From: Bdellovibrionales bacterium GWB1_55_8
GTDB taxonomy: Bacteria; Bdellovibrionota; UBA1018
Reading direction: 5' to 3'
DNA length: 64,000 bases
NCBI GenBank assembly: GCA_001769835.1
Contig: MEPR01000035.1
Location: forward strand, 24,683 to 88,682
Below are positions 1-15,193 of the stretch, piece after piece (positions within the stretch are counted from its first letter, which is position 1; the number at the start of each line of letters is the position of its first letter). The position numbers and the translations under genes were made by a program. A model generated the notes under the pieces. It ran no database searches and was not told the DNA's origin. It saw only the letters and a list, made by a program, of their open reading frames with translations.

Positions 1-389
1 TCGTTCTGATCAACGATCTTCACGACGCAAATCTGCCCGAACTCCGCCACCTGCGCTCCCTCTGCCTGGAGATTTTGCGGCTCGCCAGCCTCGCCAAGAG
101 ATCGATCGTTTTCCTTCCCATTCAAAACCTCGATGAGGTTCACCACAGAATGACGTTCCTGCAGGCCCAGTCTGTCATCGTGCCATTTGTCGAGGATGGA
201 ATTTTGCCGTTCCTTGAGTCATGGTTGATCTCCGAGCCGAAAGCCTCAGTCCGTATCCTGTTCAATTCGGCACAAGGGAAGTCTTCCGTGGAAACGGTCA
301 CCACAATTCTGCGCGCCCAAGACAGTTTGATAACCTACGACGACGACCTCTCCAACATCACCAGAGCAGCGGCGGGAGCACTCGCTTGA
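1..389 (+). CDS. hypothetical protein, 5' end lies outside the window; frame +3 is open from base 3 to the TGA at 387-389
   Basis: Read by eye: no stop codon in frame 3 from the window start to the TGA at 387-389. The track's ORF 75..389 is the internal TTG-started part of this frame. No recognisable family motif. Confidence 0.35.
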   Translation, partial: VLINDLHDANLPELRHLRSLCLEILRLASLAKRSIVFLPIQNLDEVHHRMTFLQAQSVIVPFVEDGILPFLESWLISEPKASVRILFNSAQGKSSVETVTTILRAQDSLITYDDDLSNITRAAAGALA

Positions 390-790
390 CTGAGCTGATC
401 GATTCCGCGCAATGCAACCGTGACGCTTTCAACGCCTATCGATCCATTCTCAAGAAAGCAGGACGCTTGTCCTGCCGCATTCTCAGCGATTCCATGCACC
501 CGCTCATCAGTGCCGGCGAAACAGTGAACATCGCCCCCGTTCCGGAACTTGGCGAACTGCGACGGTTCGATATCATCGTATTTCTGTACGGAGACCGGTT
601 GTATTGCCATTATGTCTGGTCGATGTGGGAAAATCCGGTACAGATCCAGACACGTTCCCTGAAGGAATGCCGGTCGGATGATTTGCCCACCTTGCCTGAC
701 TTCCTTCTTGGAAAAGTCATAGATCAGAAGATCGGGATCCGGACGCGTATCTGGATAATTCTGCTGAACTGGTTCAAAGGAACGGCGTGA
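386..790 (+). CDS. S24/S26-like (LexA/signal-peptidase fold) peptidase, about 134 aa from TTG 386
   Basis: Motif SDSMHPLISAGETVNI followed by FDIIVF...GDRLY resembles the GDSMxP...GDxVxV...GDIVVF pattern of S24/S26 peptidases. A TTG start at 386-388 overlaps the upstream TGA (TTGA coupling). The track ORF 221..790 starts further upstream, but that N-terminal part carries no motif. Confidence 0.4.
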   Translation: MTELIDSAQCNRDAFNAYRSILKKAGRLSCRILSDSMHPLISAGETVNIAPVPELGELRRFDIIVFLYGDRLYCHYVWSMWENPVQIQTRSLKECRSDDLPTLPDFLLGKVIDQKIGIRTRIWIILLNWFKGTA

Positions 791-1808
791 ACTCGTCCAG
801 CGCCCCCATCTTTGAAACAAGATGGTGGGCAAGCGATTCGACGGCGGGCGCGCAGTATCGGACCTGCCCGGAAAAGCACCTCTTCGTCCTGAAGCTTCTC
901 ACGTCGCGCAGGAAAAGCGGATCCATGGTGTAGCGGTCCCACTCAGACCTGACTTCCTGAAAAAGACCGGGACCATATTCACGTCCCGTCGCCGAAATCG
1001 AGTAATAATGGGTAAACGACAAAGGAAGGTTCAACACCGGCCGCTCAGGAGTTTGCTGACCGAAAGACTTTCCGCCTTTGCTCAAGAACTGGTGGGTCAC
1101 GAAACTGTCCGAATAAAAAAACCGTCGCGGGTTGAATTCAAAAAACGCGCTAGCCCCGAGTTTACGATTCTGAACTTCCGGCCAGGGCACATAATCGACA
1201 TCGTCACCGAAGACATCCAACGCGGCACGGGTCATCTCAAAGTGAAGACGACTTCTCGCGTCCCGTTCCGTCGAATTCTTGCCAAAGACATGCGCAGCCA
1301 GAAAAGTGACATGATATCTCACCGTCTCGTCCGCAAAGAACCGCTTCACAGCATGAAGTCGTGCCGAAAACTGACTTAACGAACATTGCTTGTCATCTAT
1401 AACACTCACCACTAAATAGACGTCGTTCACTTGTTTCGCATCAAGCGGGCTCACCGAATGCACGCGGTAATACGCAACTGACGCGTCCCATGCCGCTGGA
1501 ACCGTCCACGCCAGGTCAGCATGAAGAAAAACATGGCAATCGCGATCCGGAGGGGCTGGATACCGAAGAAAGAAGTCCAGAAGTCCGAGAGCCCCGTCCC
1601 GAACCAGGAGCGGGCGGTAGGCGCTTAGAACGTCCGCACTTTTTATCTGGTGAAGGAAAACGGGCTTCAGGACCGAGAAATACTCTTCGGAATGAGGGTA
1701 AAGGAACTTTGCGGTATTCCTTCCGGAACGGCTGTTGGCGCTCCACTCTGACCTGATCGCGAATCGACTCAGCTCCCCGACGGAGCGGCTCAGGCTGATC
1801 AGCTCCAT
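774..1808 (-). CDS. hypothetical protein (344 aa from internal Met; the track ORF extends to 1904 but would overlap the upstream GT gene by 74 nt)
   Basis: Long minus-strand ORF in series with the GT4 gene. An ATG at 1808-1806 leaves a 22-nt spacer after the GT4 stop. No confident family assignment; a possible IDD motif hints at a GT-A-like fold, but only weakly. Confidence 0.4.
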   Translation of the reverse strand: MELISLSRSVGELSRFAIRSEWSANSRSGRNTAKFLYPHSEEYFSVLKPVFLHQIKSADVLSAYRPLLVRDGALGLLDFFLRYPAPPDRDCHVFLHADLAWTVPAAWDASVAYYRVHSVSPLDAKQVNDVYLVVSVIDDKQCSLSQFSARLHAVKRFFADETVRYHVTFLAAHVFGKNSTERDARSRLHFEMTRAALDVFGDDVDYVPWPEVQNRKLGASAFFEFNPRRFFYSDSFVTHQFLSKGGKSFGQQTPERPVLNLPLSFTHYYSISATGREYGPGLFQEVRSEWDRYTMDPLFLRDVRSFRTKRCFSGQVRYCAPAVESLAHHLVSKMGALDEFTPFL

Positions 1809-1830
1809 GATCTCACGGGTTCGATCCCGC

Positions 1831-3120
1831 TCAGAAATACGAGTCATACAATTCCCGATAAAGGTTGGAGTATCCTTCGGCCGCCCGGAACGGAGCTTTC
1901 GCATTCAAGCGATACGCACGCGCCAGCTGTTCAAATGCCTGGGTGAAACCTGAAAACGGTTCCCTTGAATCGCTCCCATTCCGCACCATATCGCCGATTT
2001 TTCGCCCCACTGATTCACACGAGCAAAACTCCCGCGCGCCCTCAGAAACGTTCCGCCGATCAGCATCCGTGCGATTCCGAGAAGCCATTGACGCCATTCC
2101 TTTGATGCAGGCTTTCAGCTCGGGTTGAATGCGGCGCCCCGATATCTGTACAGGGATGTGATCCACCGATCCCGGCCTCTGGCCACCGAAGGAGGAATAC
2201 CCCCCCCAATCTGACAGCAGCAACTGTTGTCCACAGCACCATGCCTCCGCGGGAGCCATTCCGAAGTCCTCGTCATTATGAGTGCTGAAGCTTACGAAGA
2301 CATCGGCCATCGCATAAAGATCCGCCAGACGCGCAGCCTCAAGATCTCCCAAATATTGAACGCGTTCACGATCCGGATCGGCCACCAATGTGTCGCGCAG
2401 CTCAATCAAATCAGCGGCGAGCAAACCGGTTAAAGGAGTCTTCCCGATATACGGGATTCCAAGATCGTCTATCGGCCCCGCGAGCCAGAGTCGTGCTTGA
2501 GGGTTGAATCGAAGATAGGCCGCAAAGGCCCTCATCAGAAGCAGCACGTTTTTTTGTAAACTCAGCCTGCCTGAGTAAAGCAAAATGGTTTCCGAAGTGG
2601 AAATGCCCTGCTCCTTCCGTAACCCTGAATAGGCGCCTTCCCGAAACGAAAACAAGGAGGAGTCCACCGGGAACGGAACCCAGGCAACCCGTCCAGAGAT
2701 GAACGACCGGAGCAGCTTTTGCTGCTTTTCTGATGCACCGACAAACACCGGCTGAGCGCTGCGAAACAACTCCTCCATCCGAAGCCACTCATTCGGATTG
2801 ATTGTGAAATCACCAAAAGCATGGATCACGAGTCTTGGCCAGGATTTCAGCTTTCTCGCAAGTAATTCGAACAGAACGGCCGGATGCGGCTTGTGGTCGA
2901 CAATTGCGATCAGGTCGGGCTTGAACGAGACAATGCCCTCCGCAAGCTGGTCCAAATCCAAGAAAGAAGCGGACTCTTCCATGTAAAACTGCCGGATCTC
3001 CGCTGAGGGGAACTCCAGTGAATAACTGTTGATCAGGTTTTGAGTGATGGATCGACAGCTCACCCAGTCCGAAGGGCGCTGCCGGCAAATGAGAGCGATT
3101 TTGCGCATAAACTTGTGCAA
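1831..3120 (-). CDS. glycosyltransferase, GT4 (GT-B fold, RfaG/WcaL-like)
   Basis: C-terminal GT1/GT4 signature: ILLYSGRLSLQKNVLLLMRAF ... DVFVSFSTHNDEDFGMAPAEAWCCG (E-x7-E motif). Confidence 0.7.
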   Translation of the reverse strand: MHKFMRKIALICRQRPSDWVSCRSITQNLINSYSLEFPSAEIRQFYMEESASFLDLDQLAEGIVSFKPDLIAIVDHKPHPAVLFELLARKLKSWPRLVIHAFGDFTINPNEWLRMEELFRSAQPVFVGASEKQQKLLRSFISGRVAWVPFPVDSSLFSFREGAYSGLRKEQGISTSETILLYSGRLSLQKNVLLLMRAFAAYLRFNPQARLWLAGPIDDLGIPYIGKTPLTGLLAADLIELRDTLVADPDRERVQYLGDLEAARLADLYAMADVFVSFSTHNDEDFGMAPAEAWCCGQQLLLSDWGGYSSFGGQRPGSVDHIPVQISGRRIQPELKACIKGMASMASRNRTDADRRNVSEGAREFCSCESVGRKIGDMVRNGSDSREPFSGFTQAFEQLARAYRLNAKAPFRAAEGYSNLYRELYDSYF

Positions 3121-3143
3121 TCGTAGTCTAATTGCAAATACTT

Positions 3144-3171
3144 TGGCAATGAAGTAACTTTCGCTTAAAAT
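3144..3171 (+). promoter_or_regulatory. sigma70-like promoter for the PqqD-led operon: TTGGCA-16 nt-TAAAAT
   Basis: TTGGCA at 3144-3149 and TAAAAT at 3166-3171, then GAGGG SD at 3172-3176 and ATG at 3181. Sits in the 60-bp gap between divergent GT4 and pqqD-like genes. Confidence 0.4.
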
Positions 3172-3180
3172 GAGGGCTCT

Positions 3181-3504
3181 ATGAGCGATACCACGCCTTT
3201 GAAAACCGGTTCCATTGAATCTGCCATTATTCCGGGAGCACGCCTGGAAATGAGCAAGGACCTCGTTGCGCGGAAAAACCAGGATGGAACCGTGATCGTC
3301 ATGAAGCTGGATGACAGCGCCGTTTTTTACAAGATTGACGGCATCGCCGCAGCGGTCTGGACCGAACTGGGGAACAAGCCGACCTTATCTGAGCTAGTAT
3401 CCAAATTCTCGGAACAGCATCCGAACCATCGCGATGAGATCGGTCGCGATGTGACAAACCTGATTACAGCGCTGCTCGGAAAACAGCTGATTGAAAAAAC
3501 CTGA
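3181..3504 (+). CDS. PqqD-family protein (RiPP recognition element-type peptide chaperone)
   Basis: 107 aa. VARKNQDGTVIVMKLDDSAVFYKIDGIAAAVWTELGNKPTLSELVSKFSEQ...EIGRDVTNLITALLGKQLIE is the canonical PqqD/RRE pattern (beta-strands then a wH-like helix, ending in a protein-binding helix). Confidence 0.7.
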   Translation: MSDTTPLKTGSIESAIIPGARLEMSKDLVARKNQDGTVIVMKLDDSAVFYKIDGIAAAVWTELGNKPTLSELVSKFSEQHPNHRDEIGRDVTNLITALLGKQLIEKT

Positions 3505-3519
3505 CGGAATGGTGAAATT

Positions 3520-3975
3520 ATGAGCGATACCGACAAGACCAAGAAAACAGAACAAAAAGACTACTACTTCGGCGGCATCAAGGAATTCAACCTTGAGCAG
3601 ATCGAGACGGAAGTACTGAACGAAAGCATTTACCTCGACGTTTTTGCCGGATCGGATCTCCGTCTGAAGAAAAATGTTTTGCCGATCGAGGACGCATTGT
3701 CGAAGGTCCTGCAAATCGAGGGAGTTCGCTTTGAATGGAACCCTGAAGCGCCCGGGGCGCCGAAAAACGGAACGCCGCAAGCAGGGCTGATCGCGCAGGA
3801 CGTGGCTGCAGTGATGCCGGAACTTGTCCGGGCCGACCGCGATACCGGAATGCTCGCGGTTGAGTACAGCAAGCTCGTCAGCTATCTTGTCGAGGCGGTC
3901 AAAGATCTGAACGCCATCGTACTCAAACAGGAAGCCCGGATCCGGGCACTGGAAAAGCCTGATTCGCGCCACTGA
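3520..3975 (+). CDS. small protein made of a 44-aa N-terminal peptide plus a C-terminal intramolecular chaperone auto-processing domain (Peptidase S74 / tail-fibre CIMCD-like)
   Basis: Residues 45-150 read SDLRLKKNVLPIEDALSKVLQIEGVRFEWNP...AGLIAQDVAAVMPELV...LAVEYSKLVSYLVEAVKDLNAIVLKQEARIRALE. This matches the S74/CIMCD consensus (SDxRLK...Y.W...GfIAQEv..v.PE.V.......l.V.Y..L..lliEAiKeL...i..L) and includes the Ser-x4-Lys catalytic dyad (S45/K50). The gene sits 15 nt after pqqD and 8 nt before an rSAM gene. Confidence 0.7.
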   Translation: MSDTDKTKKTEQKDYYFGGIKEFNLEQIETEVLNESIYLDVFAGSDLRLKKNVLPIEDALSKVLQIEGVRFEWNPEAPGAPKNGTPQAGLIAQDVAAVMPELVRADRDTGMLAVEYSKLVSYLVEAVKDLNAIVLKQEARIRALEKPDSRH

Positions 3976-3983
3976 CGCAACCC

Positions 3984-5072
3984 ATGGAGTCGCGATCTGC
4001 CGAGTCGACTAGAAAAAAACTACTGGTAAAGGGTTTATCCCCGAATTTCTGCCTGGTCCCGTTCACGACCTTGACCATTGAACCCGACGGCCACCTCGGC
4101 TGCTGCAGGCAGAAAGGGTCTCAGTTTTCGATAGGCAATCTTCATACGCAATCGCTGGCGGAAGCATGGAATGGCGATCCACTGAGAAGGTGGAGACGCG
4201 AGTTCCTAGAAGGCTCCCCGCAGACGTGCCGTAGCGAGATACGCCACTCCTCCTGCAATCTGTGTCCTGATTACAACTCGCTCCTTGACGCGATCGATCC
4301 ACGGGAAATTCAGCCCGGACCACCGCTCCGGCTCGGACTCAATCTCAATGGCAAGTGCAACCTGCGCTGCCGAATGTGTGTAGTCTGGAAGCAACCCAAC
4401 GGCATCTTCGATCGGCTTGACCTTCAGAGTTCCCTGGAGCCCCACATAAAGACGCTTCGCGAAGTCGAACTTCACTCAGGCGAGCCCTTTATCCAAAAGG
4501 ATACCTATCGTCTGATCAGCTGGATCAGCGATCATAATCCCGAATGCCTCTGGACGATCACCACCAACGCCCACTGGCGGCTTTCTGGGAGAATCGAAGA
4601 ACATCTGGATAAGATCCGATTCAAGAACCTGATCATAAGCATCGACAGCCTGGATGCGGCCACTTACGCAAAAATACGACAAGGCGGACGCCTCGGAACG
4701 GTCATGAAGAACGTCAACCTCCTGCGGGACTACAACTCCAGGAGAGTCGCCCGCGGCCAAGGCACAATGAACATCAGGGCAAACTTCCTTATTCAACAGG
4801 ATAACTGGTCTGAGCTGCCGCAGATCTTCGACTTTGAGAGGAAAACAGGAATCGATTGCTTCCGCACGTTTCTTTACGAACCGAGGAGGTTTTCGCTCCT
4901 CGACCTTCCCTCATCCGAACGGGAGGCGATTCTTACGTTCTATGAAACGGCGCTATCGCCTCAGCAAATTCGAGGCTCATTTCGAATATTGCTGCCCCTG
5001 ATCGACAGTCTTCCCAGAATCGATCAAGTGCTTCACTGGGAAAGGATGCAGCAGTCACTCAAGGGGAATTGA
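3984..5072 (+). CDS. radical SAM protein with N-terminal SPASM/twitch-like Cys-rich domain (paralog 1)
   Basis: N-terminus NFCLVPFTTLTIEPDGHLGCC...SLAEAWNGDPLRRWRREFLEG...C...CNLC is SPASM-like. The core motif CNLRCRMC (CxxxCxxC) follows at about residue 125. Shares the SGEPFIQKDTYRLI block with paralog 2. Confidence 0.75.
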   Translation: MESRSAESTRKKLLVKGLSPNFCLVPFTTLTIEPDGHLGCCRQKGSQFSIGNLHTQSLAEAWNGDPLRRWRREFLEGSPQTCRSEIRHSSCNLCPDYNSLLDAIDPREIQPGPPLRLGLNLNGKCNLRCRMCVVWKQPNGIFDRLDLQSSLEPHIKTLREVELHSGEPFIQKDTYRLISWISDHNPECLWTITTNAHWRLSGRIEEHLDKIRFKNLIISIDSLDAATYAKIRQGGRLGTVMKNVNLLRDYNSRRVARGQGTMNIRANFLIQQDNWSELPQIFDFERKTGIDCFRTFLYEPRRFSLLDLPSSEREAILTFYETALSPQQIRGSFRILLPLIDSLPRIDQVLHWERMQQSLKGN

Positions 5073-5835
5073 ACAGCTCGTACGCGAGCAATGCCTTCGG
5101 AACCGCCCCGTCGAATACAATGCGATTCTGATGTAAAACGATCGCCCGATTGCAGTGTTGAAGAATCAGCTCTCTCGAGTGACTGACAAAAATAAGCGCT
5201 TTCGATGCATGAATCACCTGCTGCATGCGCGCCATCATTTTTGCCTGAAAGAATTGATCGGCGTTGTCGTACGCCTCATCGAGAATCAGGAGATCACCGC
5301 TCCTCGCGGTCAAGACGGCCAGACAGAGCCGGCTCTTCATTCCCTGGCTGTAAGTTTCGTAAGGAGCATCCAAGAACGCACCGAGCTCGGAAAAAGCGAT
5401 CGCCTCCTCAACAACCTGCTGAACGCCAGCGCCGATCTCGTTCGGGTAGAGGAGCCGAACCAGCAGCTCCGCATTTTCCCGCCCTGTAAGTTCCGGAACA
5501 ATGCCAGCGGTGGTATTGAATATCGCGCGACAGACCCCGTTCACCTGAATGCTCCCGGTATTCGGGCGATACATGCCTGCGATACAGCGGCACAACGTGG
5601 TTTTTCCGCTTCCGTTCACCCCCAGAATTCCCAGGCGGTCTCCTGATCGGATCTGAAGATTGATGTCATTCAGGACGTGAAGCATTCTTCGCGGCTTCAA
5701 GAGTAATCGCACTGGATCGCTCACCGCGTCCACGAAGAGCTGCCGAAGGGATCCGTTGGCATAATGCCGGAGCCGAAAAGCCAGATTTACGCCCGAAAGA
5801 GTCGCTATATTGTCAGAGCTGGTGATAGAATTCAT
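5059..5835 (-). CDS. ABC transporter ATP-binding protein (Wzt/TagH/KpsT-like, ABC-2 type exporter ATPase)
   Basis: Walker A GVNGSGKTTL, signature YSQGMKSRL, Walker B LLILDEA. Overall resemblance to polysaccharide/teichoic-acid exporter ATPases. Overlaps the permease gene by 23 nt. Confidence 0.8.
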   Translation of the reverse strand: MNSITSSDNIATLSGVNLAFRLRHYANGSLRQLFVDAVSDPVRLLLKPRRMLHVLNDINLQIRSGDRLGILGVNGSGKTTLCRCIAGMYRPNTGSIQVNGVCRAIFNTTAGIVPELTGRENAELLVRLLYPNEIGAGVQQVVEEAIAFSELGAFLDAPYETYSQGMKSRLCLAVLTARSGDLLILDEAYDNADQFFQAKMMARMQQVIHASKALIFVSHSRELILQHCNRAIVLHQNRIVFDGAVPKALLAYELFNSP

Positions 5836-6565
5836 TTTTCATTCGCTTCCAATACGTGACAGCGGCCACCCCAAAGAGCGCGGCGCAGACAGTCGCCTTT
5901 GCCAACGATCCGATGAAACCTTCCGAGCTGAAGCTGTAGATGCAGATTCTCACCGGCTCGATGAGAACATAGATCGGGTTAATGCCAATCAACCACTGAT
6001 ACTGATCAGGGACAAATTCCTTCGGGTAAAAGATCGGAGTCACGAAGAAAAGAACGCCGATCATGAAATGCACCACATACCGAACATCCCTGTAAAAAAC
6101 GTTCAACATGGATAAAAACCAGAGCAAACCTCCTGTTCCAGCAAGAAGAGGCAACAAGGCGAGCGGAAGGAACCAGAGCCCCGTTTTTTGCACATCCGTG
6201 ATCAGAACAGTCGGGACCAGAATGATCGAGAAGGCGGCCACAAAATTGACGGCATTATCCAGCAAGGACGAGAAAACAAGCAGATAGGGCTTCACCTTCA
6301 ACGCGAGAAACACCTCGCGTGCCCCGACGGGAACCGCGATCCCCATTTCGAGCGAGGAAACAACGAATACCCAGGGCAGCAAACCACCCAACAGAAACAG
6401 TCCGTAATTCGGGATTCCGATTCGCAGTATTTCCTTGAAGGCCAGTGCTTGAGCTGCGTAGAGCACGATGGGACTGAGAATCACCCATACAAAGCCCGCA
6501 AAGGTCCGCCGATAGCGGGCCCGCATCTGCGCTTTGGTCATGAAAACAAGCAGGCTCCAGTTCAT
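5813..6565 (-). CDS. ABC-2 type transporter permease (Wzm/TagG/KpsM-like)
   Basis: 250 aa, six predicted TM segments, typical ABC-2 N-terminus (KAQMRARYRRTFAGFVWVILSP). Confidence 0.75.
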   Translation of the reverse strand: MNWSLLVFMTKAQMRARYRRTFAGFVWVILSPIVLYAAQALAFKEILRIGIPNYGLFLLGGLLPWVFVVSSLEMGIAVPVGAREVFLALKVKPYLLVFSSLLDNAVNFVAAFSIILVPTVLITDVQKTGLWFLPLALLPLLAGTGGLLWFLSMLNVFYRDVRYVVHFMIGVLFFVTPIFYPKEFVPDQYQWLIGINPIYVLIEPVRICIYSFSSEGFIGSLAKATVCAALFGVAAVTYWKRMKNEFYHQL

Positions 6566-6590: not shown

Positions 6591-7382
6591 TCAGGAAACC
6601 ACCAGTATGTAATCGCATTCACTGCAAACGGAATGAGCGGCCCTCTTGCCTTCTCTCAGCCGGTTACGAAAGTCGATGTACTTCTGCGATGCCCAGATAT
6701 CTCCAAAGTGCTGTTCCTGGACATTACCCATGACATTCCGCTGAAGGAAATCCTGAAAACAGGGAAGGACGTTCCCCTTGACCGTAATCACTGACGTGGA
6801 AATCGGAACAAAACACGGTCTGTCAAGCGGTGGCGTCACCTTGAAAGAACCGAAGCCCTGAACAAGCCCCCCCCTGTTCGTGAAAATCAGGTCTTGATGG
6901 GAGTAATAGATGATCTTGCCTTTATCGGATTCCGACAAGCGCGCATAAGCATCCTCAAATTCCGCCAAGTCCGAACCTATATGCCGCGTGACGGTGAACT
7001 TATGAACGCCGAGGTCCAGGAGTTCCCGGAGCTTCTCCTGGTTCAACAGAGTTCCATTCGTGAAAATCTCGATCCTGCTTCGCGGAAGAATATCACGCGT
7101 GAGCGCCACAAATCGGGACAGGGAAGGCGACAACAACGGTTCATTGAAGAAATGATACGAGATGCGGCCTTCGTAATTCAGGTCGGAAAGCTGCTTCAGG
7201 ATTCCAAGAAAGAGCGTGTCTTCCATCGCGCCGCGCTCCGGCCTCTCGAAACTGGAATTCGGGCAATAAGGGCACCTCCTATTGCAGTCACTTCCAATCT
7301 CGATCTCGACCGCGAGTGGCGGCTTGAGTCCTTTAGGGTTCATCTTCCTCGCATTATCCGACATTTTCCGTGATTTCGCCAT
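6591..7382 (-). CDS. radical SAM protein with C-terminal twitch/SPASM-like domain (conventional order)
   Basis: EIEIGSDCNRRCPYCPNS (CxxxCxxC) near the N-terminus. C-terminal Cys pattern RPC...LPC...GNVQEQHFGDIWASQKY...CSEC. The start is taken at ATG 7382 (ATG 7364 also possible); the track's extension to 7604 has no support and would run into the divergent gene. Confidence 0.7.
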   Translation of the reverse strand: MAKSRKMSDNARKMNPKGLKPPLAVEIEIGSDCNRRCPYCPNSSFERPERGAMEDTLFLGILKQLSDLNYEGRISYHFFNEPLLSPSLSRFVALTRDILPRSRIEIFTNGTLLNQEKLRELLDLGVHKFTVTRHIGSDLAEFEDAYARLSESDKGKIIYYSHQDLIFTNRGGLVQGFGSFKVTPPLDRPCFVPISTSVITVKGNVLPCFQDFLQRNVMGNVQEQHFGDIWASQKYIDFRNRLREGKRAAHSVCSECDYILVVS

Positions 7383-7453
7383 GGACTGCTCACAAATGGC
7401 ACCTTTACTGAATCGGACTGGACGGGCACCCGGCACACCCATAGAATCTCTGC

Positions 7454-8551
7454 GTGAAACCTCAGCTGACCCCGGGAGAAATCCTCGAAATCTACAGGAA
7501 GAAGGGACTTCCGGAAAACTTCTGCCCGGTGCCTTTTTCCACTCTGCTTTTTGAGGCGAACGGGAATGTCTGCATGTGCCGCAGAAAGGGTTCGGAGTTC
7601 GCAATCGGCAACATCCAGGAGCAGGACTACCTTGAAATCTGGAACGGGGAAAAGCTGAAGAACATACGCGCCGAGTTTTTGACCGGCAGGCTTCGCACCT
7701 GCGCCGTTGAAGTCGAGCGCGACCATTGTAATCTCGATGCCAACAATGCCGACTCCCTTCCTTTCATCGAACTGGCGGTCGAGCAGCAGAGGCATCCTCT
7801 CCGCATAAGTCCCAACTTCAACGGACACTGCAATGTTCAGTGTGAGATGTGTCACATCTGGCGCTATCCGGACGGCTTGTATGACAAAATCGGTTTCTGG
7901 CGAACACTCGAGAACGACATCCTGCCGCACTTGCGCGAAATCGACACATTCTCAGGAGAGCCGTTCATCCAGAAAGACACCTACCGCCTCATCGAAATGG
8001 CCGCGCACGCGAATCCAAACATTTTCTGGAGCTTCACCACAAACGCGAACTGGCGCCTGAATGACACTATTCGGCGCTATCTCGACATGATCCAGGTGAA
8101 AACATTCAACTTGAGCATTGATAGCGTCGATCCGGCCGTCTATGCCTCGATTCGCCGCGGAGGAAACCTGGACAAGGTCCTCATCAACTTCGACCTGCTC
8201 CAGCTTTACGAACAGGAAAGAATCGCGGCTGGAAAGAGCGCACTCGGACTTACCATCCATTCGGTTATTCAGCGATCGAACTGGAAAGGCATTCCGGCGC
8301 TCCTCACACTGAGAAAGCAGAGGAATGCGCGAATTCATCTGAAATGCCTTTTTGAGCCTCCGGAACTCTCGCTCATCGGGATGACGGCGGCGGAAAAGCG
8401 GCAAATTCTGGCATACCTGCTTGAATCGCTTGGCCGCGAGGAACTGATGATGACTGCTGCGCTCTGGAAAGTGCTGTTGAAGGATATTCCCAAATCAGAC
8501 AGGCTGGAATTAATTCTGGAGTTTCAGAAGAAGACGGGAATCTTTCGCTGA
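7454..8551 (+). CDS. radical SAM protein with N-terminal SPASM/twitch-like domain (paralog 2)
   Basis: GTG start. NFCPVPFSTLLFEANGNVCMC...IGNIQEQDYLEIWNGEKLKNIRAEFLTG...C...C, then CNVQCEMC (CxxxCxxC). The SGEPFIQKDTYRLI block is identical to paralog 1. Confidence 0.75.
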   Translation: MKPQLTPGEILEIYRKKGLPENFCPVPFSTLLFEANGNVCMCRRKGSEFAIGNIQEQDYLEIWNGEKLKNIRAEFLTGRLRTCAVEVERDHCNLDANNADSLPFIELAVEQQRHPLRISPNFNGHCNVQCEMCHIWRYPDGLYDKIGFWRTLENDILPHLREIDTFSGEPFIQKDTYRLIEMAAHANPNIFWSFTTNANWRLNDTIRRYLDMIQVKTFNLSIDSVDPAVYASIRRGGNLDKVLINFDLLQLYEQERIAAGKSALGLTIHSVIQRSNWKGIPALLTLRKQRNARIHLKCLFEPPELSLIGMTAAEKRQILAYLLESLGREELMMTAALWKVLLKDIPKSDRLELILEFQKKTGIFR

Positions 8552-8592: not shown

Positions 8593-9957
8593 ATGCCACG
8601 ACAATTCCTCGAGCGCCGCACCCTCGCAATCGTGTCGGCCCTGGGTCTGCTCAGCGCTCTCTCACTCAGCCTGACTCTGCGCCCTCAGCCTGGCGGCGTG
8701 GGATCTTGCCACGAAATTCGTGCCGCGCGATATTTTGACAGCACAACCAAAAAGGTCCGCAGCCCTGCTAAAATTCTTGTCGAAGGCGGAAAAATTCAAC
8801 GCCACATCAGTACGCCACGATCTGAGCCTTGCAAAGTGATCGACCTACCGGACGCAACGCTATTGCCCGGCCTGATTGACACCCACACGCACTTATTCAT
8901 GCGCGATTCAGCCTATTACCGCGGTTTTTCAACGGAGCTTCTTTCCGTGGTCAAACACAGTGACGCCGAACGGTTGGCTTGGGGGAAGGAGAGCGCCCAA
9001 CAGCTTTTGTTTGCGGGAATCACGACGGTTCGCGATCTGGGTAATTCGGGATTATTCCTGGACGCGCAGTTCGAAAAATTCCTGAACAGCAATGGCGGGT
9101 TCGCGAGCCCCAGGATCATCTATTCGGGACCCGGTATCAGCGGAAGTGGCGGTCAGTTTCCGGAAAACACCCCCTTGGCCATCGTCCAGAAGGAGTACTT
9201 TCCCCTCCTGGAACCTGGCTTGGCCGCCGGAATAGTCGCCCGCTTAAACGAGAACGGCGCCACCTGGGTGAAAGTATTCGCTGACGGTGATCCAAATCCG
9301 GAAAAGATGGAACAAATCGTTCTCGAGTCAATTGTGCGCGAGGCGCGGAGGCTCGGAAAAAAAATCGCTGCGCACAGTACGGAAGACGCAACGGCCTTGC
9401 ATGCCGTTGCCGCGGGAGTCGACAGCATCGAGCATGGGTTTGGAATTTCGACCTCCACCCTGTCTCAAATGGCGAAAAAGGGTATTTTTCTGGTACCAAC
9501 CGATTTCAGTCGCAGGGTTTGTGACATCATTCGCATGAAAAATCCGGATCCTCAATACCAGGACCCCGGGCGGTACCTCCAAGAACGCGGAATACGCCTC
9601 AAGGAGGCGGTTCGACTGGGTGTTCCGGTTGCGTTCGGTTCCGATGCCTACTCTGATATGAGCGCCGAAGGCCTGAACATGGGCCAGGCAGCGAAAGAGG
9701 GCCTTTACGCTTACTGGGAAGAGGGCATGAATGCCCCGGACGTGCTTCACGCCGCAACATTGGGTTCCGCCGAACTTCTCGGGATGGCGGATCAACTCGG
9801 GACGCTGGAGGCCGGCTCGAGCGCGGACATCATCGCGATCAAAGGAGATCCATTGGAGGATCTCCGAAACCTTGATCAGGTGATCTTTGTCATGAAAGAA
9901 GGCACCGTGTTCACAAGTCCGGAAACAGTTTCAAGCGTGGCAAGCCATGGCCAATAA
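8593..9957 (+). CDS. amidohydrolase-family metal-dependent hydrolase, predicted secreted
   Basis: Hydrophobic N-terminus LAIVSALGLLSALSLS. Metal-binding start GLIDTHTHL, later HSTEDAT...AAGVDSIEHG and VAFGSDAYS motifs typical of the amidohydrolase TIM-barrel superfamily. The stop overlaps the next start (ATGGCCAATAA). Confidence 0.7.
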   Translation: MPRQFLERRTLAIVSALGLLSALSLSLTLRPQPGGVGSCHEIRAARYFDSTTKKVRSPAKILVEGGKIQRHISTPRSEPCKVIDLPDATLLPGLIDTHTHLFMRDSAYYRGFSTELLSVVKHSDAERLAWGKESAQQLLFAGITTVRDLGNSGLFLDAQFEKFLNSNGGFASPRIIYSGPGISGSGGQFPENTPLAIVQKEYFPLLEPGLAAGIVARLNENGATWVKVFADGDPNPEKMEQIVLESIVREARRLGKKIAAHSTEDATALHAVAAGVDSIEHGFGISTSTLSQMAKKGIFLVPTDFSRRVCDIIRMKNPDPQYQDPGRYLQERGIRLKEAVRLGVPVAFGSDAYSDMSAEGLNMGQAAKEGLYAYWEEGMNAPDVLHAATLGSAELLGMADQLGTLEAGSSADIIAIKGDPLEDLRNLDQVIFVMKEGTVFTSPETVSSVASHGQ

Positions 9958-11275
9958 CGACCGCCAGGACAATGTCACCCGGAAGCTCAGCCAGGTCTCT
10001 CCGTGCTTTTGCCTGGCCAAGTGGCTTCAGGTCACCATCGATATCGTCCATGGGACGACTCACAGCTGTCATCACCCTGCGCGCCACCCCATCCCGCTTC
10101 AGGAGCTCCAATCGAACTTGCATGCCCTTCACAATACGAACTTCAAAAAGCAGCAGCGAAAAGCCATGCTCGAGGGGCATCGCCCTGCCGAGTGCGTTTA
10201 TTGCTGGGACATTGAAGACGCAGGTTCTGCCTATTCCGATCGGATCGTGAAATCCTCCGACCCCTGGGCTCTGCCTTTTCTTGATGAAATAAAATCTCTT
10301 CCCTGGGATGCGGATGTCCTCCCAACCTACCTCGAAGTGATGCTCGACGATCGCTGCAATCTCTCATGCGCCTACTGCATGGCCGACATCAGCAGTTCCA
10401 TTGCCGCCGAGATGGCGAAATTCGGTCCTTACCCAGTCAGCGACAAGGGGCATCGGATGCCCACCCATCCCGTGCCGGACGACCCCAATCCCTACGTCGC
10501 CGCGTTTTGGAAATGGATCCCTGCGGTTTTACCGAATTTGAAAGTACTGAGGGTCACAGGGGGTGAGCCGCTTTTAAGCGGACGCCTTCAGGAATTGCTG
10601 ACGATCCTGCGTCAGGACAAGCACCCGGATCTCACGTTGATCATCAACTCCCATCTGAGCGTGGGTTCTCAAGCCCTCGAGTTATTTTTCGATCAGGTTG
10701 AAGACCTGTTGGAAACCCAAGCGATCGGCCACTTTGAACTCTACACCAGCCTGGATGCCGCTGGCCCCCCCGCTGAATACATTCGCTGCGGAATGGAGTA
10801 CCGAAAGGTCATGAACACCATTGCGACGGCAGCCAGACGTTTTCCAGAAGCAAAAGTGGTTGCCATGTGCGCCTTCAATCTGCTCTCTCTTTCCTCATTC
10901 GGATTGCTCCTTGCGGAAATATGCGCGCTGAAGCGGGAGCTACCGAACGTCTTTCTGGATACGGCATACCTGCGGAACCCACGGTACCTCTCCTCCAATC
11001 TGGCGACTGCCGGTCTGAAACGATCCGCGGCTGAAGCGATGGCCGGGTTCATCGGGAGCCCCCGGTCGTATACGAACCATGAGATCGCGAAAATCGAGAA
11101 CTCGCTGCGGTGGATGCAAAGCGAGCCCGGATCGACGGAGCTTGCGCGCGGAAGGCGGGATTTCCTGCTGTTCGTCTCCGAGTACGACCGCCGAAAGAAC
11201 AAGTCGTTCTTAGGTGTATTTCCGGAATACAGGGAGTTTTACCGGGAGTGCAAAAGGTCAGTTCTCACGACCTAA
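9947..11275 (+). CDS. radical SAM protein with N-terminal twitch/SPASM-like domain (paralog 3, 442 aa)
   Basis: N-terminal Cys cluster SPCFCLAKW...HSCHH...ECVYCWDIE. Core motif DDRCNLSCAYC (CxxxCxxC). Translationally coupled to the amidohydrolase gene. Confidence 0.75.
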   Translation: MANNDRQDNVTRKLSQVSPCFCLAKWLQVTIDIVHGTTHSCHHPARHPIPLQELQSNLHALHNTNFKKQQRKAMLEGHRPAECVYCWDIEDAGSAYSDRIVKSSDPWALPFLDEIKSLPWDADVLPTYLEVMLDDRCNLSCAYCMADISSSIAAEMAKFGPYPVSDKGHRMPTHPVPDDPNPYVAAFWKWIPAVLPNLKVLRVTGGEPLLSGRLQELLTILRQDKHPDLTLIINSHLSVGSQALELFFDQVEDLLETQAIGHFELYTSLDAAGPPAEYIRCGMEYRKVMNTIATAARRFPEAKVVAMCAFNLLSLSSFGLLLAEICALKRELPNVFLDTAYLRNPRYLSSNLATAGLKRSAAEAMAGFIGSPRSYTNHEIAKIENSLRWMQSEPGSTELARGRRDFLLFVSEYDRRKNKSFLGVFPEYREFYRECKRSVLTT

Positions 11276-15153: not shown

Positions 15154-15180
15154 TTGACAATTGATACTCAGGGATATAGG
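15154..15180 (+). promoter_or_regulatory. possible sigma70-like promoter (TTGACA-15 nt-TATAGG)
   Basis: TTGACA at 15154-15159, in the 70-bp gap after the tauE-like gene and 35 nt before the ATG at 15194. Confidence 0.3.
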
Positions 15181-15193
15181 TTGCGGCCAATTT

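What the first reader, a model, noticed from the sequence alone, without database searches (positions are those of the whole stretch)
3144..5072. PqqD-RRE, self-cleaving S74-domain protein and permuted radical SAM in one operon: candidate undescribed RiPP-like system
Three tightly spaced genes follow the classic RiPP layout of recognition element, precursor, and maturase. They are pqqD-like, a 151-aa ORF 15 nt downstream, and an rSAM 8 nt after that, behind a plausible sigma70 promoter. The ORF in the precursor position is not a short leader/core peptide. It carries a complete phage-tail-fibre-type intramolecular chaperone auto-processing domain (Peptidase S74). I know of no RiPP class whose precursor has a C-terminal autoproteolytic follower domain, so if this is real it is a new precursor architecture. 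GC content of pqqD and the S74 gene looks a few points lower than neighbouring housekeeping genes (about 50 vs 58 percent by eye).
Basis: partly seen in the sequence, partly recalled or inferred. Interest (0 to 1): 0.85.

Follow-up and report, generated by a model that had tools for sequence, protein, structure and literature searches.

The report
Self-cleaving mini-protein with peptide-maturation genes
Predatory bacteria of the phylum Bdellovibrionota carry a conserved, undescribed gene set in which a small cytoplasmic protein, made of a nearly invariant 30-residue peptide fused to a phage-tail-fibre self-cleaving domain, is linked and often physically fused to a peptide-recognition protein, next to radical SAM enzymes, sugar-building enzymes and an exporter; it looks like a new way of making a modified peptide, but no step has been shown experimentally.

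Summary
Window 3181-3504 encodes a PqqD/RRE protein, 3520-3975 a 151-aa protein with a complete Peptidase_S74 intramolecular chaperone domain, and 3984-5072 a radical SAM (rSAM) enzyme with its SPASM/twitch domain at the N-terminus.

It is not a prophage remnant. The source is a Bdellovibrionales MAG. The S74 mini-protein has 136 detected homologs and 58 genome loci, all from Bdellovibrionota. None with the N-terminal peptide was found in 2.9 million viral contigs.

Most homologs are natural PqqD-S74 fusions. The 30 residues before the cleavage Ser are more conserved than the S74 domain itself. The S-D-x-x-x-K catalytic motif is invariant in 120 of 120 sequences. No other conserved small ORF exists in the loci.

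AlphaFold orders the conserved GIKEFN segment into a strand only when PqqD is present in cis.

The trio sits in a larger shuffled set: three or four rSAMs, GT4 glycosyltransferases, sugar-nucleotide enzymes, an ABC-2 exporter and a Ser/His peptidase-like protein. One rSAM type (NF033640) is common in viral glycan clusters that lack PqqD, so it may tailor sugars.

Best reading (about 0.5): an RRE-recognised, self-cleaving precursor or carrier peptide that is modified or glycosylated and then exported. I found no description of it in the searchable literature.

The parts
3143..3171 (+). Sigma-70-like promoter candidate, TTGGCA-17 nt-TAAAAT, ahead of pqqD
   Evidence: 10 of 12 consensus positions match. 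The region holds 2 such sites against 1.2 expected by chance, so this is only plausible.
3181..3504 (+). PqqD-family RiPP recognition element (RRE), 107 aa, as a free-standing gene
   Evidence: PF05402, 35 bits (cut-off 23.4); below the cut-offs of all curated PqqD subfamilies (lasso, PQQ, SCM, Wgk); residues 24-107 align with residues 12-104 of the natural fusion P0024 (44% identity); that domain superposes on leader-bound lasso RRE TbiB1 (TM 0.84).
3520..3975 (+). S74 mini-protein, 151 aa, no signal peptide: variable tail, conserved peptide, then self-cleaving intramolecular chaperone domain
   Evidence: The N-terminus MSDTDKTKKTEQKD is charged and lacks a hydrophobic stretch (direct reading).
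3520..3561 (+). Residues 1-14: variable K/E/T-rich N-terminal tail. In the fusions this position is the variable linker after PqqD.
   Evidence: mean top-residue frequency 0.37, entropy 2.75 bits.
3562..3651 (+). Residues 15-44: nearly invariant peptide YYFGGIKEFNLEQIETEVLNESIYLDVFAG, the candidate recognition and core region. It contains an N34-E-S36 sequon.
   Evidence: top-residue frequency 0.82 and entropy 0.81 bits, against 0.55 and 1.86 bits for the ICD. L25, E29, Y38 and V41 are kept in 119 of 120 sequences; F42 and G44 in 120 of 120; the segment I20-N24 is a strand with pLDDT about 80 in the PqqD fusion model, but is disordered (pLDDT about 50) without PqqD; residues 37-44 resemble the strand before the Ser in other ICD proteins, so residues 15-36 are the family-specific part.
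3652..3972 (+). Residues 45-151: Peptidase_S74 intramolecular chaperone domain. The Ser45-Lys50 dyad lies in S-D-L-R-L-K (3652-3669). Cleavage is predicted at G44|S45.
   Evidence: PF13884. (6f45, 7dc3, 8jov, 3gud). (MyRF ICA, TM 0.64, rmsd 1.9). S45, D46 and K50 are invariant in 120 of 120 sequences. Caulton 2024 showed that the SDxxxK motif is catalytic in the Bdellovibrio fibre Bd3182.
3984..5072 (+). rSAM1: radical SAM enzyme with an N-terminal SPASM/twitch domain (Cys 23, 40, 41, 82, 91, 94) and CxxxCxxC at residues 125-132
   Evidence: NF033640 scores 104 bits, below its 170 cut-off; it is the immediate same-strand downstream neighbour of the S74 gene in 19 loci; no relatives in viral contigs; no PDB relative by sequence.
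5059..6565 (-). ABC-2 exporter pair: Wzt-like ATPase (5059-5835) and Wzm-like permease (5813-6565)
   Evidence: present in 20-21 of 28 full loci; in L060 the fusion gene overlaps the Wzm start by 10 nt. P0129 is an rSAM3-Wzm fusion.
6591..7442 (-). Classical radical SAM/SPASM enzyme (283 aa by the public gene call; the ORF extends to 7604)
   Evidence: present in 17 of 28 full loci.
7454..8551 (+). rSAM2: paralog of rSAM1 with the N-terminal twitch architecture
   Evidence: 39% identity to rSAM1..
9947..11275 (+). rSAM3: true member of NCBIfam NF033640, the N-terminal twitch radical SAM family
   Evidence: 255.6 bits against a 170 cut-off; next to PqqD in 12 loci; at least 600 relatives in viral contigs, embedded in sugar-nucleotide and glycosyltransferase clusters without PqqD.
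1831..3108 (-). GT4 glycosyltransferase, divergently transcribed from pqqD
   Evidence: PF00534; the GT4 family is present in 26 of 28 full loci.
774..1847 (-). Conserved protein of unknown fold (357 aa), always adjacent to the GT4 gene
   Evidence: present in 19 of 28 full loci. No Pfam, NCBIfam, PHROG, PADLOC or PDB match; invariant residues D84, G85, F93, P99, P117, W120, G258.
371..790 (+). Small S24/S26-like peptidase candidate of the Ser/His type; start codon uncertain
   Evidence: invariant S-M-x-P and His; 11 of 24 family members weakly hit Peptidase_S24 or S26. SPase I 4nv4 at E=0.0057 and human SEC11C at E=0.023, with the invariant His aligned to the His in SEC11C's PIVHRV motif; present in 17 of 28 full loci.
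8593..9957 (+). Amidohydrolase with a signal-peptide-like N-terminus; accessory member
   Evidence: PF01979; present in 10 of 28 full loci.

Best explanation
The three genes are the peptide module of a conserved Bdellovibrionota locus that also encodes glycan-building enzymes and an exporter.

Proposed mechanism:
1. The 151-aa protein is made in the cytoplasm. It has no signal peptide.
2. Its C-terminal intramolecular chaperone domain (ICD) trimerises, as all known S74 domains do.
3. The PqqD-type RRE binds the conserved Y-x-F-G-G-I-K-E-F-N segment as an added beta-strand. The RRE is free in this genome and fused to the same polypeptide in most relatives. This binding presents the following residues (L25 to G44) to locus enzymes.
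4. The first candidate enzyme is the adjacent N-terminal-SPASM/twitch rSAM1.
5. The GT4 glycosyltransferases may then add sugars tailored by the NF033640-type rSAMs, aminotransferase, carbamoyltransferase and epimerase.
6. The Ser45-Lys50 dyad cuts at G44|S45. This releases the N-terminal peptide, or PqqD plus peptide in the fusions, with a defined C-terminal Gly.
7. The ABC-2 transporter exports the product, and the Ser/His peptidase-like protein may trim it.

Shown here: the domain identities, the invariant catalytic motif, the conserved co-location, the fusions, and the absence of any other candidate peptide.

Inferred: RRE binding, which enzyme acts on the peptide, the chemistry, the cleavage, and the export.
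For: 1. The domains are genuine.
2. One search found 136 homologs. Most are proteins of about 250 aa that carry PF05402 and PF13884 together. The window's two genes align collinearly with the two halves of the fusion P0024. This is a Rosetta-stone link.
3. One search found 58 genome loci, all from Bdellovibrionota. In the 28 loci with a full 10 kb on each side, an N-twitch rSAM is present in 26, GT4 in 26, PqqD (free or fused) in 24 and Wzm in 21. Gene order is shuffled, which argues for selection on co-location. L022 has Wzm-Wzt-rSAM1-peptidase-GT4-unk357-S74-PqqD on one strand.
4. rSAM1 is the immediate downstream neighbour of the S74 gene in 19 loci, and PqqD touches S74 in 17. In the reverse test, 22 of 73 metagenome loci found with rSAM1 hold an S74 homolog, and most of the rest hold other members of the set.
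5. Residues 15-44 are the most conserved part of the protein, and S45, D46 and K50 are invariant in 120 of 120 sequences.
6. No other conserved ORF of 18-110 aa exists in the loci, yet an RRE needs a peptide partner.
7. In AlphaFold models the I-K-E-F-N segment is a beta-strand with pLDDT about 80 when PqqD is in cis. It is unstructured with pLDDT about 50 in the window protein alone. The PqqD half superposes on leader-bound RREs.
8. The family is absent from viral contigs, and no phage genes flank it.
Against: - No experiment exists for any member, and no modified residue can be named.
The two models also used different alignments.
- NF033640-type rSAMs occur at least 600 times in viral contigs, next to UDP-glucose/GDP-mannose-dehydrogenase-family genes, glycosyltransferases and methyltransferases, with no PqqD in any of 79 loci. 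Distant rSAM1 relatives sit in rSAM arrays without PqqD or S74. The enzyme family as a whole is therefore not tied to peptides.
- Residues 37-44 resemble the strand before the Ser in ordinary fibre ICDs, so part of the conservation is structural.
- Four of 28 full loci show no PqqD within 10 kb.
- An RRE fused to its own substrate is unusual.
- The loci were annotated with six-frame ORFs and single-query phmmer. Many come from fragmented MAGs.
Confidence: 0.5

Rival explanations
1. Glycan pathway with a protein adaptor. The locus makes and exports a surface polysaccharide of the O-antigen, capsule or teichoic-acid kind. All the rSAMs tailor sugars. The PqqD-ICD protein is not a substrate. It would be a trimeric scaffold, chaperone or ruler that organises the enzymes or the exporter.
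For: - The locus holds DegT aminotransferase, carbamoyltransferase, NAD-epimerase/dehydratase, several GT4 and GT2 genes, and a Wzm/Wzt-like ABC-2 exporter whose best NCBIfam matches are galactan and teichoic-acid exporters.
- NF033640 rSAMs in viruses sit in sugar-nucleotide and glycosyltransferase clusters without PqqD.
- An rSAM3-Wzm fusion exists (P0129).
- ICDs are trimerisation modules (established knowledge).
Against: - To my knowledge, every characterised PqqD/RRE domain binds a peptide, and the fold here matches leader-bound RREs.
- A mere scaffold would not need an invariant Ser-Lys cleavage dyad in 120 of 120 sequences, nor a 30-residue segment more conserved than the domain itself.
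- The Wzt and Wzm matches are far below the equivalog cut-offs (159 against 400 bits, and 44 against 380 bits).
- rSAM1, the tightest neighbour of S74, has no viral relatives.
Confidence: 0.25
2. Peptide-glycan conjugate made by transfer. Ser45 forms an ester intermediate during self-cleavage. A sugar or lipid-linked glycan nucleophile resolves it instead of water. The conserved peptide thus becomes covalently joined through Gly44 to the glycan built by the locus, in the manner of hedgehog autoprocessing, or it acts as a protein primer for the glycan.
For: - The peptide module and the glycan module are tightly and persistently co-located, including in single-strand operon-like arrays.
- Gly44 and the dyad are invariant.
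- The exporter is of the type that moves glycans.
Against: This is pure inference. To my knowledge, known S74 domains hydrolyse, and one search shows simple two-band processing. No ligase-like or acceptor-binding feature was identified.
Confidence: 0.07
3. Remnant or chance neighbour. The 151-aa gene is a truncated leftover of a prophage tail-fibre gene or of a Bdellovibrio MAT fibre gene, and it merely lies beside unrelated rSAM and PqqD genes.
For: - PHROG profiles of tail fibres match its last 100 or so residues.
- Bdellovibrio encodes many S74-terminated fibres.
- Small secreted S74 mini-fibres exist.
Against: - The gene is conserved as a protein of about 140-170 aa, or as a PqqD fusion, across three classes of the phylum, with the same neighbours.
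- Its N-terminal peptide occurs only in these small proteins and in none of the long fibres among the best 150 of 189,706 S74 representatives.
- No phage genes are nearby.
- The one viral hit covers the ICD only.
Confidence: 0.02
4. MyRF-like regulator. The PqqD domain has a winged-helix fold. Trimerisation and self-cleavage by the ICD would release it as a signalling or regulatory factor, as the ICA domain releases the MyRF transcription factor.
For: The closest solved structure to the ICD half is the MyRF ICA domain. The domain order, N-terminal effector then ICD, is the same.
Against: - There is no membrane anchor or sensor domain.
- PqqD is a separate gene in about half of the lineages, including this window.
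- The fold matches peptide-binding RREs rather than DNA-binding domains.
- The constant neighbours are enzymes and an exporter.
Confidence: 0.03

Closest known systems
Peptidase S74 / C-terminal intramolecular chaperone domain (phage K1F endosialidase, T5 and S16 tail fibres, GA-1 neck appendage, Bdellovibrio MAT fibres, eukaryotic MyRF)
   Same: The full domain is present, including the C-terminal helix. The Ser-x4-Lys dyad lies in S-D-x-R-x-K. The predicted fold superposes on the MyRF ICA domain.
   Different: Known members sit at the end of long, mostly secreted trimeric fibres or of a membrane-bound transcription factor. Here the 'cargo' is only 44 residues, or a PqqD domain plus linker. 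The protein has no signal peptide, the cargo is more conserved than the chaperone, and the gene is tied to rSAM, RRE and exporter genes.
RRE-dependent radical SAM peptide pathways with conserved precursors: PQQ (PqqA/PqqD/PqqE) and mycofactocin (MftA/MftB/MftC, peptidase MftE, glycosyltransferase MftF)
   Same: It has a discrete PqqD-family RRE, SPASM/twitch-type rSAM enzymes and a precursor that is conserved rather than hypervariable. As in mycofactocin, there is a peptidase-like gene, there are glycosyltransferases, and chemistry would need a defined free C-terminus. The comparison rests on established knowledge of these pathways.
   Different: The PqqD is below the cut-off of every curated subfamily. 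The rSAMs carry the auxiliary-cluster domain at the N-terminus. The candidate precursor carries a 107-residue self-cleaving follower domain and is often fused to its own RRE. The locus contains three to five rSAMs, an ABC-2 exporter and a large glycan gene set.
RiPP precursors fused to a biosynthetic protein (borosins such as OphMA) and precursors with follower peptides (bottromycin); from my own knowledge
   Same: The core peptide is part of a larger polypeptide that contributes to its own maturation. A C-terminal extension is removed after modification.
   Different: Here the fused partner is the recognition element, not the enzyme. The follower is predicted to remove itself through an S74 Ser-Lys dyad.
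Wzm/Wzt (ABC-2) dependent glycan assembly loci, and viral glycan clusters with arrays of N-terminal-twitch rSAMs
   Same: It has an ABC-2 permease and ATPase, several GT4 and GT2 genes, sugar-nucleotide aminotransferase, epimerase and carbamoyltransferase, and an NF033640 rSAM. The same rSAM family sits beside sugar dehydrogenase and glycosyltransferase genes in at least 79 viral loci.
   Different: The viral loci examined here contain no PqqD (0 of 79) and no S74 protein carrying the N-peptide. To my knowledge, ordinary polysaccharide loci contain neither an RRE nor an S74 mini-protein.

Membership tests
Peptidase S74 / intramolecular chaperone domain | Match to PF13884 above the curated cut-off | tested here: met
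   61.8 bits against 22, profile positions 1-58 of 58 at residues 45-104.
Peptidase S74 / intramolecular chaperone domain | Catalytic Ser-Lys dyad in the S-D-x-x-x-K motif | tested here: met
   Sequence GS45DLRLK50. S45, D46 and K50 are invariant in 120 of 120 homologs. The motif is defined as catalytic in Caulton 2024.
Peptidase S74 / intramolecular chaperone domain | Complete domain fold including the C-terminal trimerising helix | tested here: met
   the profile aligns to 6f45, 7dc3 and 8jov over positions 43-152; model pLDDT above 87 for residues 50-145, with helix 116-145. MyRF ICA, TM 0.64, rmsd 1.9 (measured on the fusion homolog).
Peptidase S74 / intramolecular chaperone domain | Sits at the C-terminus of a long trimeric fibre, spike or other large cargo | tested here: not met
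   Only 44 residues precede the Ser, or PqqD plus linker in the fusions. None of the long S74 proteins matches profile positions 1-40.
Peptidase S74 / intramolecular chaperone domain | Trimerisation-dependent autoproteolysis | not testable with these tools
   Needs expression of wild type against S45A or K50A variants, with SDS-PAGE or MS.
PqqD / RiPP recognition element | Match to PF05402 above the curated cut-off | tested here: met
   35 bits against 23.4.
PqqD / RiPP recognition element | Winged-helix RRE fold like leader-bound RREs | tested here: met
   on the fusion homolog P0024 (44% identical to the window PqqD): TbiB1 5v1v TM 0.84, lasso B1 6jx3 TM 0.80, PqqD 5sxy TM 0.68.
PqqD / RiPP recognition element | Membership of a curated functional subfamily (PQQ PqqD, lasso B1, ScmD, WgkC) | tested here: not met
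   best score 20.3 bits against cut-offs of 46-110.
PqqD / RiPP recognition element | Binds a precursor peptide | tested here: inconclusive
   The evidence is indirect. The IKEFN segment becomes a strand (pLDDT about 80) only when PqqD is in cis.
RiPP biosynthetic gene cluster | Gene-encoded precursor with a recognition region and a modified core | tested here: inconclusive
   The S74 mini-protein is the only conserved small product in the loci, and it is fused to the RRE in most homologs. Modification is not shown.
RiPP biosynthetic gene cluster | Maturase co-located with the precursor and RRE across genomes | tested here: met
   an N-twitch rSAM is present in 26 of 28 full loci, and rSAM1 lies directly downstream of S74 in 19 loci.
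RiPP biosynthetic gene cluster | Post-translational modification of the core peptide | not testable with these tools
   Needs MS of the expressed product.
NCBIfam NF033640 (N-terminal twitch radical SAM) | Score above the curated cut-off of 170 bits | tested here: not met
   For the rSAM of the finding (3984-5072) the score is 104.2 bits, and for its paralog 7454-8551 it is 93.2 bits. The cut-off is met only by 9947-11275, at 255.6 bits. The N-terminal Cys-rich domain followed by the CxxxCxxC core is shared by all three.
Wzm/Wzt polysaccharide ABC exporter | ABC-2 permease plus ATPase, scoring above the equivalog cut-offs | tested here: inconclusive
   The Pfam domains are met. The NCBIfam galactan Wzt and Wzm models score 159 against 400 bits and 44 against 380 bits. 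The substrate class is therefore open.
Prophage tail-fibre remnant | Flanking phage structural or lysogeny genes, and presence in viral sequence collections | tested here: not met
   Searches show no phage genes nearby. One search found one hit in 2.9 million viral contigs, covering the ICD only.
Bdellovibrio MAT fibre family (Caulton 2024) | Signal peptide, conserved beta-rich domain of about 130 aa, fibre of about 1000 aa | tested here: not met
   The protein is 151 aa with a charged N-terminus and no hydrophobic signal (direct reading).
Known anti-phage defence systems | Match to PADLOC models beyond the generic rSAM core | tested here: not met
   only weak viperin-core similarity for the rSAMs, and nothing for PqqD, S74, unk357 or the peptidase.

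The most novel reading that the evidence does not exclude
This would be a new class of ribosomal peptide maturation. The precursor carries its own trimerising, self-cleaving follower domain, taken from the tail-fibre chaperone family, and often its own recognition element. The released, nearly invariant peptide of about 30-44 residues is tailored by N-terminal-twitch radical SAM enzymes, decorated with an unusual glycan, and exported. The result would be a phylum-wide glycopeptide of predatory bacteria, serving as a cofactor, a signal or a surface element.
Probability: 0.3. Interest if true: 0.9.

Novelty: new variant of a known kind. Interest (0 to 1): 0.72.

Why it matters
If the reading is right, it adds a new precursor architecture to RiPP biology: a peptide that brings its own recognition element and its own C-terminal protease.

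It would also give a first functional handle on the uncharacterised radical SAM enzymes that carry an N-terminal SPASM/twitch domain. One type of these, NF033640, is widespread in viruses (at least 600 matches in viral contigs).

It would further show that the tail-fibre chaperone domain has been recruited for a cytoplasmic role. Bdellovibrio is already known to use this domain in predation fibres.

The peptide is nearly invariant across Bdellovibrio-, Bacteriovorax- and Halobacteriovorax-type predators. The product is therefore likely to matter for their physiology or their cell surface.

The hypothesis is directly testable with three or four genes expressed in E. coli.

Tried and rejected
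- **Prophage or fibre remnant:** rejected on conservation, the specific N-peptide and the absence of phage genes.
- **Horizontal transfer inferred from GC:** rejected. Only the K/E/N-rich first 132 nt of the S74 gene are low in GC.
- **Another, conventional precursor peptide in the loci:** I searched for one. The only conserved small ORFs were PqqD, its antisense shadows, an unrelated cold-shock-like gene and two members of the peptidase-like family.
- **Known defence system:** no.
- **Literature:** six searches combining PqqD/RRE, S74, intramolecular chaperone, Bdellovibrio(nota), RiPP, N-terminal twitch rSAM and BMS_3129-3133 found no description.
- **Solved-structure relatives of rSAM1 and rSAM3 by sequence:** none at E<=1e-3.
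- **Function of the conserved 357-aa protein:** no Pfam, NCBIfam, PHROG, PADLOC or PDB-profile match, and the word-indexed homology search found only 2 proteins.
- **Homology search with rSAM3:** it was saturated by close relatives and gave no out-of-phylum context. The viral and metagenome scans served instead.
- **Direct check that the peptide strand docks on the RRE sheet:** not possible, because model coordinates are not exposed.
- **The one isolated phage with an NF033640 homolog** (Ralstonia phage RsoM2USA) is annotated entirely as hypothetical proteins.

Full report
**What is in the window**

Window positions 3181-3504, 3520-3975 and 3984-5072 hold three same-strand ORFs separated by 15 and 8 nt.
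- The first is a PqqD-family protein (PF05402, 35 bits, E=1.8e-8).
- The second has a full-length Peptidase_S74 match at residues 45-104 (61.8 bits, E=7.6e-17).
- The third has a SPASM domain at residues 23-92, ahead of the radical SAM core at residues 122-254.
- NCBIfam finds no family for the S74 protein.
- NCBIfam places the rSAM nearest the 'N-terminal twitch' family NF033640, but below its cut-off (104 against 170 bits).
- The CxxxCxxC motif is C125/C129/C132. Six further Cys residues lie in the N-terminal domain (direct reading).

The GC dip is minor. pqqD is 51.5% GC and the S74 gene 54.4%, against a window mean of 55.1% with SD 3.1%. Only the Lys/Glu/Asn-rich first 132 nt of the S74 gene are low, at 45.5%.

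**Source and surroundings**

The exact protein is found on a 95-kb scaffold of the MAG Bdellovibrionales bacterium GWB1_55_8. The neighbours are listed below.
- Upstream: a DegT aminotransferase, a carbamoyltransferase, GT4 glycosyltransferases, a small peptidase-like gene and a conserved 357-aa protein of unknown function.
- Downstream: a Wzt/Wzm-like ABC-2 exporter, a classical rSAM/SPASM enzyme, a paralog of the first rSAM (39% identity), an amidohydrolase and a true NF033640 rSAM (255.6 bits).

The rest of the window is ordinary chromosome: GrpE-DnaK-DnaJ, FliD, an antiporter, a clostripain-family protease, a molybdenum hydroxylase and one tRNA-Ser. No phage genes are present. PHROG profiles match only the last 100 or so residues of the S74 protein and the rSAM.

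**The S74 mini-protein is a distinct, conserved family**

A homology search returned 136 proteins. Every one that carries a taxon name comes from Bdellovibrio, Pseudobdellovibrio, Bacteriovoracaceae or Halobacteriovorax, including H. marinus SJ BMS_3130.

Most are about 250 aa long and carry PqqD and S74 in a single polypeptide. NCBI already labels some 'PqqD family peptide modification chaperone' and others 'tail fiber domain-containing protein'. The window's two genes align collinearly with the two halves of such a fusion:
- PqqD residues 24-107 match P0024 residues 12-104.
- S74 residues 15-145 match P0024 residues 117-243.

Alignment of 120 members shows three zones:
- A variable N-terminal tail or linker (entropy 2.75 bits).
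- A nearly invariant 30-residue segment, Y-x-FGGIKEFNLEQIExEVLNESIYLDVFAG (0.81 bits).
- The chaperone domain (1.86 bits).

S45, D46 and K50 are invariant in 120 of 120 sequences. Caulton et al. 2024 define the S-D-x-x-x-K motif as catalytic for S74 domains. They showed that mutating the Ser blocks self-cleavage of the Bdellovibrio fibre Bd3182.

A family profile matches solved ICDs over positions 43-152. Nothing in the PDB matches positions 1-42.

In an exhaustive search, 189,706 representatives share the S74 domain. Among the best 150, only the small proteins of 137-293 aa match the N-terminal peptide, and the long fibres match from position 42-47 onward. Other small S74 proteins exist, but they are secreted mini-fibres without this peptide.

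Residues 37-44 resemble the aromatic and hydrophobic strand that precedes the Ser in ordinary fibres. The family-specific part is therefore residues 15-36.

**Genomic linkage**

A scan of one genome per species found 58 loci, all in Bdellovibrionota. I labelled six-frame ORFs with the window's proteins. The result is a recurring but shuffled gene set.

| Component | Present in the 28 loci with a full 10 kb each side |
|---|---|
| N-twitch rSAM | 26 |
| GT4 | 26 |
| PqqD, free or fused | 24 |
| Wzm | 21 |
| 357-aa protein | 19 |
| Peptidase-like protein | 17 |
| SPASM rSAM | 17 |
| Amidohydrolase | 10 |

- A PqqD HMM did not rescue the four loci without PqqD.
- rSAM1 is the immediate same-strand downstream gene of S74 in 19 loci. 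PqqD touches S74 in 17 loci and rSAM3 in 12.
- In L022, eight of the genes form one same-strand array.
- In the sister MAG GWA1_52_35, the fusion gene overlaps the Wzm start by 10 nt and is followed by Wzt and rSAM3.
- The H. marinus-type locus has rSAM3-PqqD-S74, with five rSAMs, two DegT genes, an epimerase, and GT2 and GT4 genes.
- No other conserved ORF of 18-110 aa exists in the intergenic space of these loci.
- In the reverse direction, 73 metagenome loci found with an rSAM1 profile mostly carry the same set. Twenty-two include the S74 gene. Several pairs of loci come from the same contig, so the locus can exceed 30 kb.

**Structure predictions**

The natural fusion P0024 was modelled with 63 sequences and gave pLDDT 85.9. 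It has a confident PqqD domain, a disordered linker, a beta-strand at I-K-E-F-N followed by a short helix (pLDDT about 80), a disordered stretch, and a confident ICD.

Foldseek places the C-terminal half on the MyRF ICA domain (TM 0.64). It places the N-terminal half on leader-bound lasso RRE TbiB1 (TM 0.84), lasso B1 6jx3 (TM 0.80) and PqqD 5sxy (TM 0.68), and also hits TigE 8vpo.

The window protein was modelled alone with 120 sequences. It keeps the ICD but loses the strand. Residues 11-40 have pLDDT about 50, and only the short helix at residues 25-31 remains.

So the conserved segment is ordered only when PqqD is present in cis. That is what docking of a leader-like strand onto an RRE sheet would produce. 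I could not see coordinates, and the two alignments differ, so this is suggestive and not proof.

**The glycan side**

The NF033640-type rSAM is not tied to peptides in general.
- At least 600 stretches in IMG/VR encode full-length relatives at 36-41% identity, often as arrays of two to six paralogs.
- In the 79 loci fetched, the neighbours are a UDP-glucose/GDP-mannose-dehydrogenase-family gene (55 loci), a GT7-like glycosyltransferase (30), a GT2 (26) and a methyltransferase (24).
- PqqD occurs in none of them. S74 appears only as ordinary tail-fibre C-termini.
- By contrast, the rSAM1 type has no detectable relative in viral contigs.
- Other families recurring in the Bdellovibrionota loci include a GT2, a B12-rSAM, an NAD-epimerase/dehydratase and an acyltransferase.

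I therefore read the locus as two coupled modules. The peptide module is PqqD, the S74 mini-protein and rSAM1-type enzymes. The glycan module is NF033640 rSAMs, GTs, sugar-nucleotide enzymes and the ABC-2 exporter. One protein cluster even fuses an rSAM3-type enzyme to the Wzm permease (P0129).

**The peptidase-like protein**

The small protein encoded upstream belongs to a family with an invariant S-M-x-P motif and an invariant His. Eleven of 24 members weakly hit Peptidase_S24 or S26. The family profile weakly matches signal peptidase I (E=0.0057) and human SEC11C (E=0.023). The His aligns with the His in SEC11C's PIVHRV motif, which I recall as the catalytic His of SEC11. A Ser/His trimming peptidase is plausible but not established.

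**Interpretation**

The most economical reading is that the S74 mini-protein is the peptide partner of the RRE. Under that reading:
- The ICD trimerises the protein and later cuts at G44|S45, releasing the conserved peptide.
- Locus enzymes modify that peptide. rSAM1 is the first candidate. Glycosylation is possible, for instance at the conserved N34-E-S36.
- The ABC-2 system exports the product.

I put this at about 0.5.

The main rival, at about 0.25, is that the locus builds a polysaccharide and the PqqD-ICD protein is a non-substrate trimeric adaptor. This rival explains the viral data for NF033640. It does not explain the invariant cleavage dyad, the extreme conservation of the 30-residue segment, or the presence of an RRE.

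Minor rivals are transfer of the peptide onto the glycan through the cleavage intermediate, a MyRF-like regulator, and a fibre remnant. The last of these is contradicted by the comparative data.

**Comparison with known systems**

The system works like RRE-dependent rSAM pathways with conserved precursors, namely PQQ and above all mycofactocin. Mycofactocin also combines an RRE, a SPASM rSAM, a peptidase and a glycosyltransferase.

It is not a member of any curated PqqD subfamily. Its rSAMs have the auxiliary domain at the N-terminus. No described RiPP precursor that I know of, or that the literature searches found, has an S74 follower domain or is fused to its RRE.

The S74 domain meets every sequence and fold criterion of its family. 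It fails the contextual one, a long fibre cargo.

I rate the finding a new variant of a known kind, with interest 0.72. It is well supported as a real, conserved and undescribed system. It is directly testable, but its chemistry is unknown.

Noticed in passing
window 3499-3522: pqqD and the S74 gene are in the same reading frame, separated only by one TGA (3502-3504) and 12 nt (T-stop-R-N-G-E-I-M). Read-through of this single stop would give a 263-aa PqqD-S74 fusion of the same architecture as the natural fusions. The arrangement is not conserved in L002, where the two genes are in different frames.
   Followed up: partly
window 371-790 (public gene): The public gene call for the S24/S26-like protein starts at the Met of the invariant S-M-x-P motif. 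That is one codon after the candidate catalytic Ser (codon 491-493), so the start is almost certainly called too far downstream.
   Followed up: partly
P0129; compare window 9947-11275 and 5813-6565: A 699-aa protein from a metagenome is an in-frame fusion of an rSAM3-type N-twitch radical SAM enzyme and a Wzm-type ABC-2 permease. It hints at a membrane-bound tailoring and export complex.
   Followed up: no
L063-L141 (IMG/VR viral contigs), e.g. L073:7091-15554: NF033640-type radical SAM genes are very common in viral contigs (at least 600 matches). They often form arrays of up to six paralogs beside UDP-glucose/GDP-mannose-dehydrogenase-family, GT7-like, GT2 and methyltransferase genes, and in 14 loci lie several kb downstream of S74-terminated tail-fibre genes. 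This looks like an uncharacterised viral glycan-tailoring cassette.
   Followed up: partly
window 3619-3627 (residues N34-E35-S36): The conserved peptide contains an N-x-S/T sequon. N is present in 102 of 120 sequences and S or T in 115 of 120. It is a possible glycosylation site given the many glycosyltransferases in the locus.
   Followed up: no
window 774-1847 (-): The 357-aa protein is always adjacent to the GT4 gene. It has no match in Pfam, NCBIfam, PHROGs, PADLOC or PDB profiles. Its invariant residues are D84, G85, F93, P99, P117, W120 and G258, with R83, F92, N239, D247 and H280 nearly invariant. It may be a partner subunit of the glycosyltransferase.
   Followed up: partly
window 11393-13605 (+): A type IV pilin-like protein with an N-terminal methylation motif (PF07963) and a 479-aa protein of unknown function follow the cluster. 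They recur next to the S74, PqqD and rSAM3 genes in about 8-10 other loci, for example the Halobacteriovorax-type loci, where the pilin-like gene encodes 650-800 aa.
   Followed up: partly
P0304: A 176-aa homolog joins the first helix of PqqD directly to 'YLDVFAGSD', deleting the rest of the PqqD domain, the linker and most of the conserved peptide. It is either an assembly artefact or a natural deletion variant.
   Followed up: no
window 41281-43935 (-): An 884-aa fusion of a LuxC-type acyl-CoA reductase with an AMP-binding domain. It is unrelated to the finding.
   Followed up: no
window 16958-18088 (+) and 15161-16948 (+): A further radical SAM protein (PF04055, 88 bits) lies just upstream of grpE-dnaK-dnaJ. 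It is preceded by a 595-aa protein with no Pfam match. Both are probably housekeeping genes outside the cluster.
   Followed up: no
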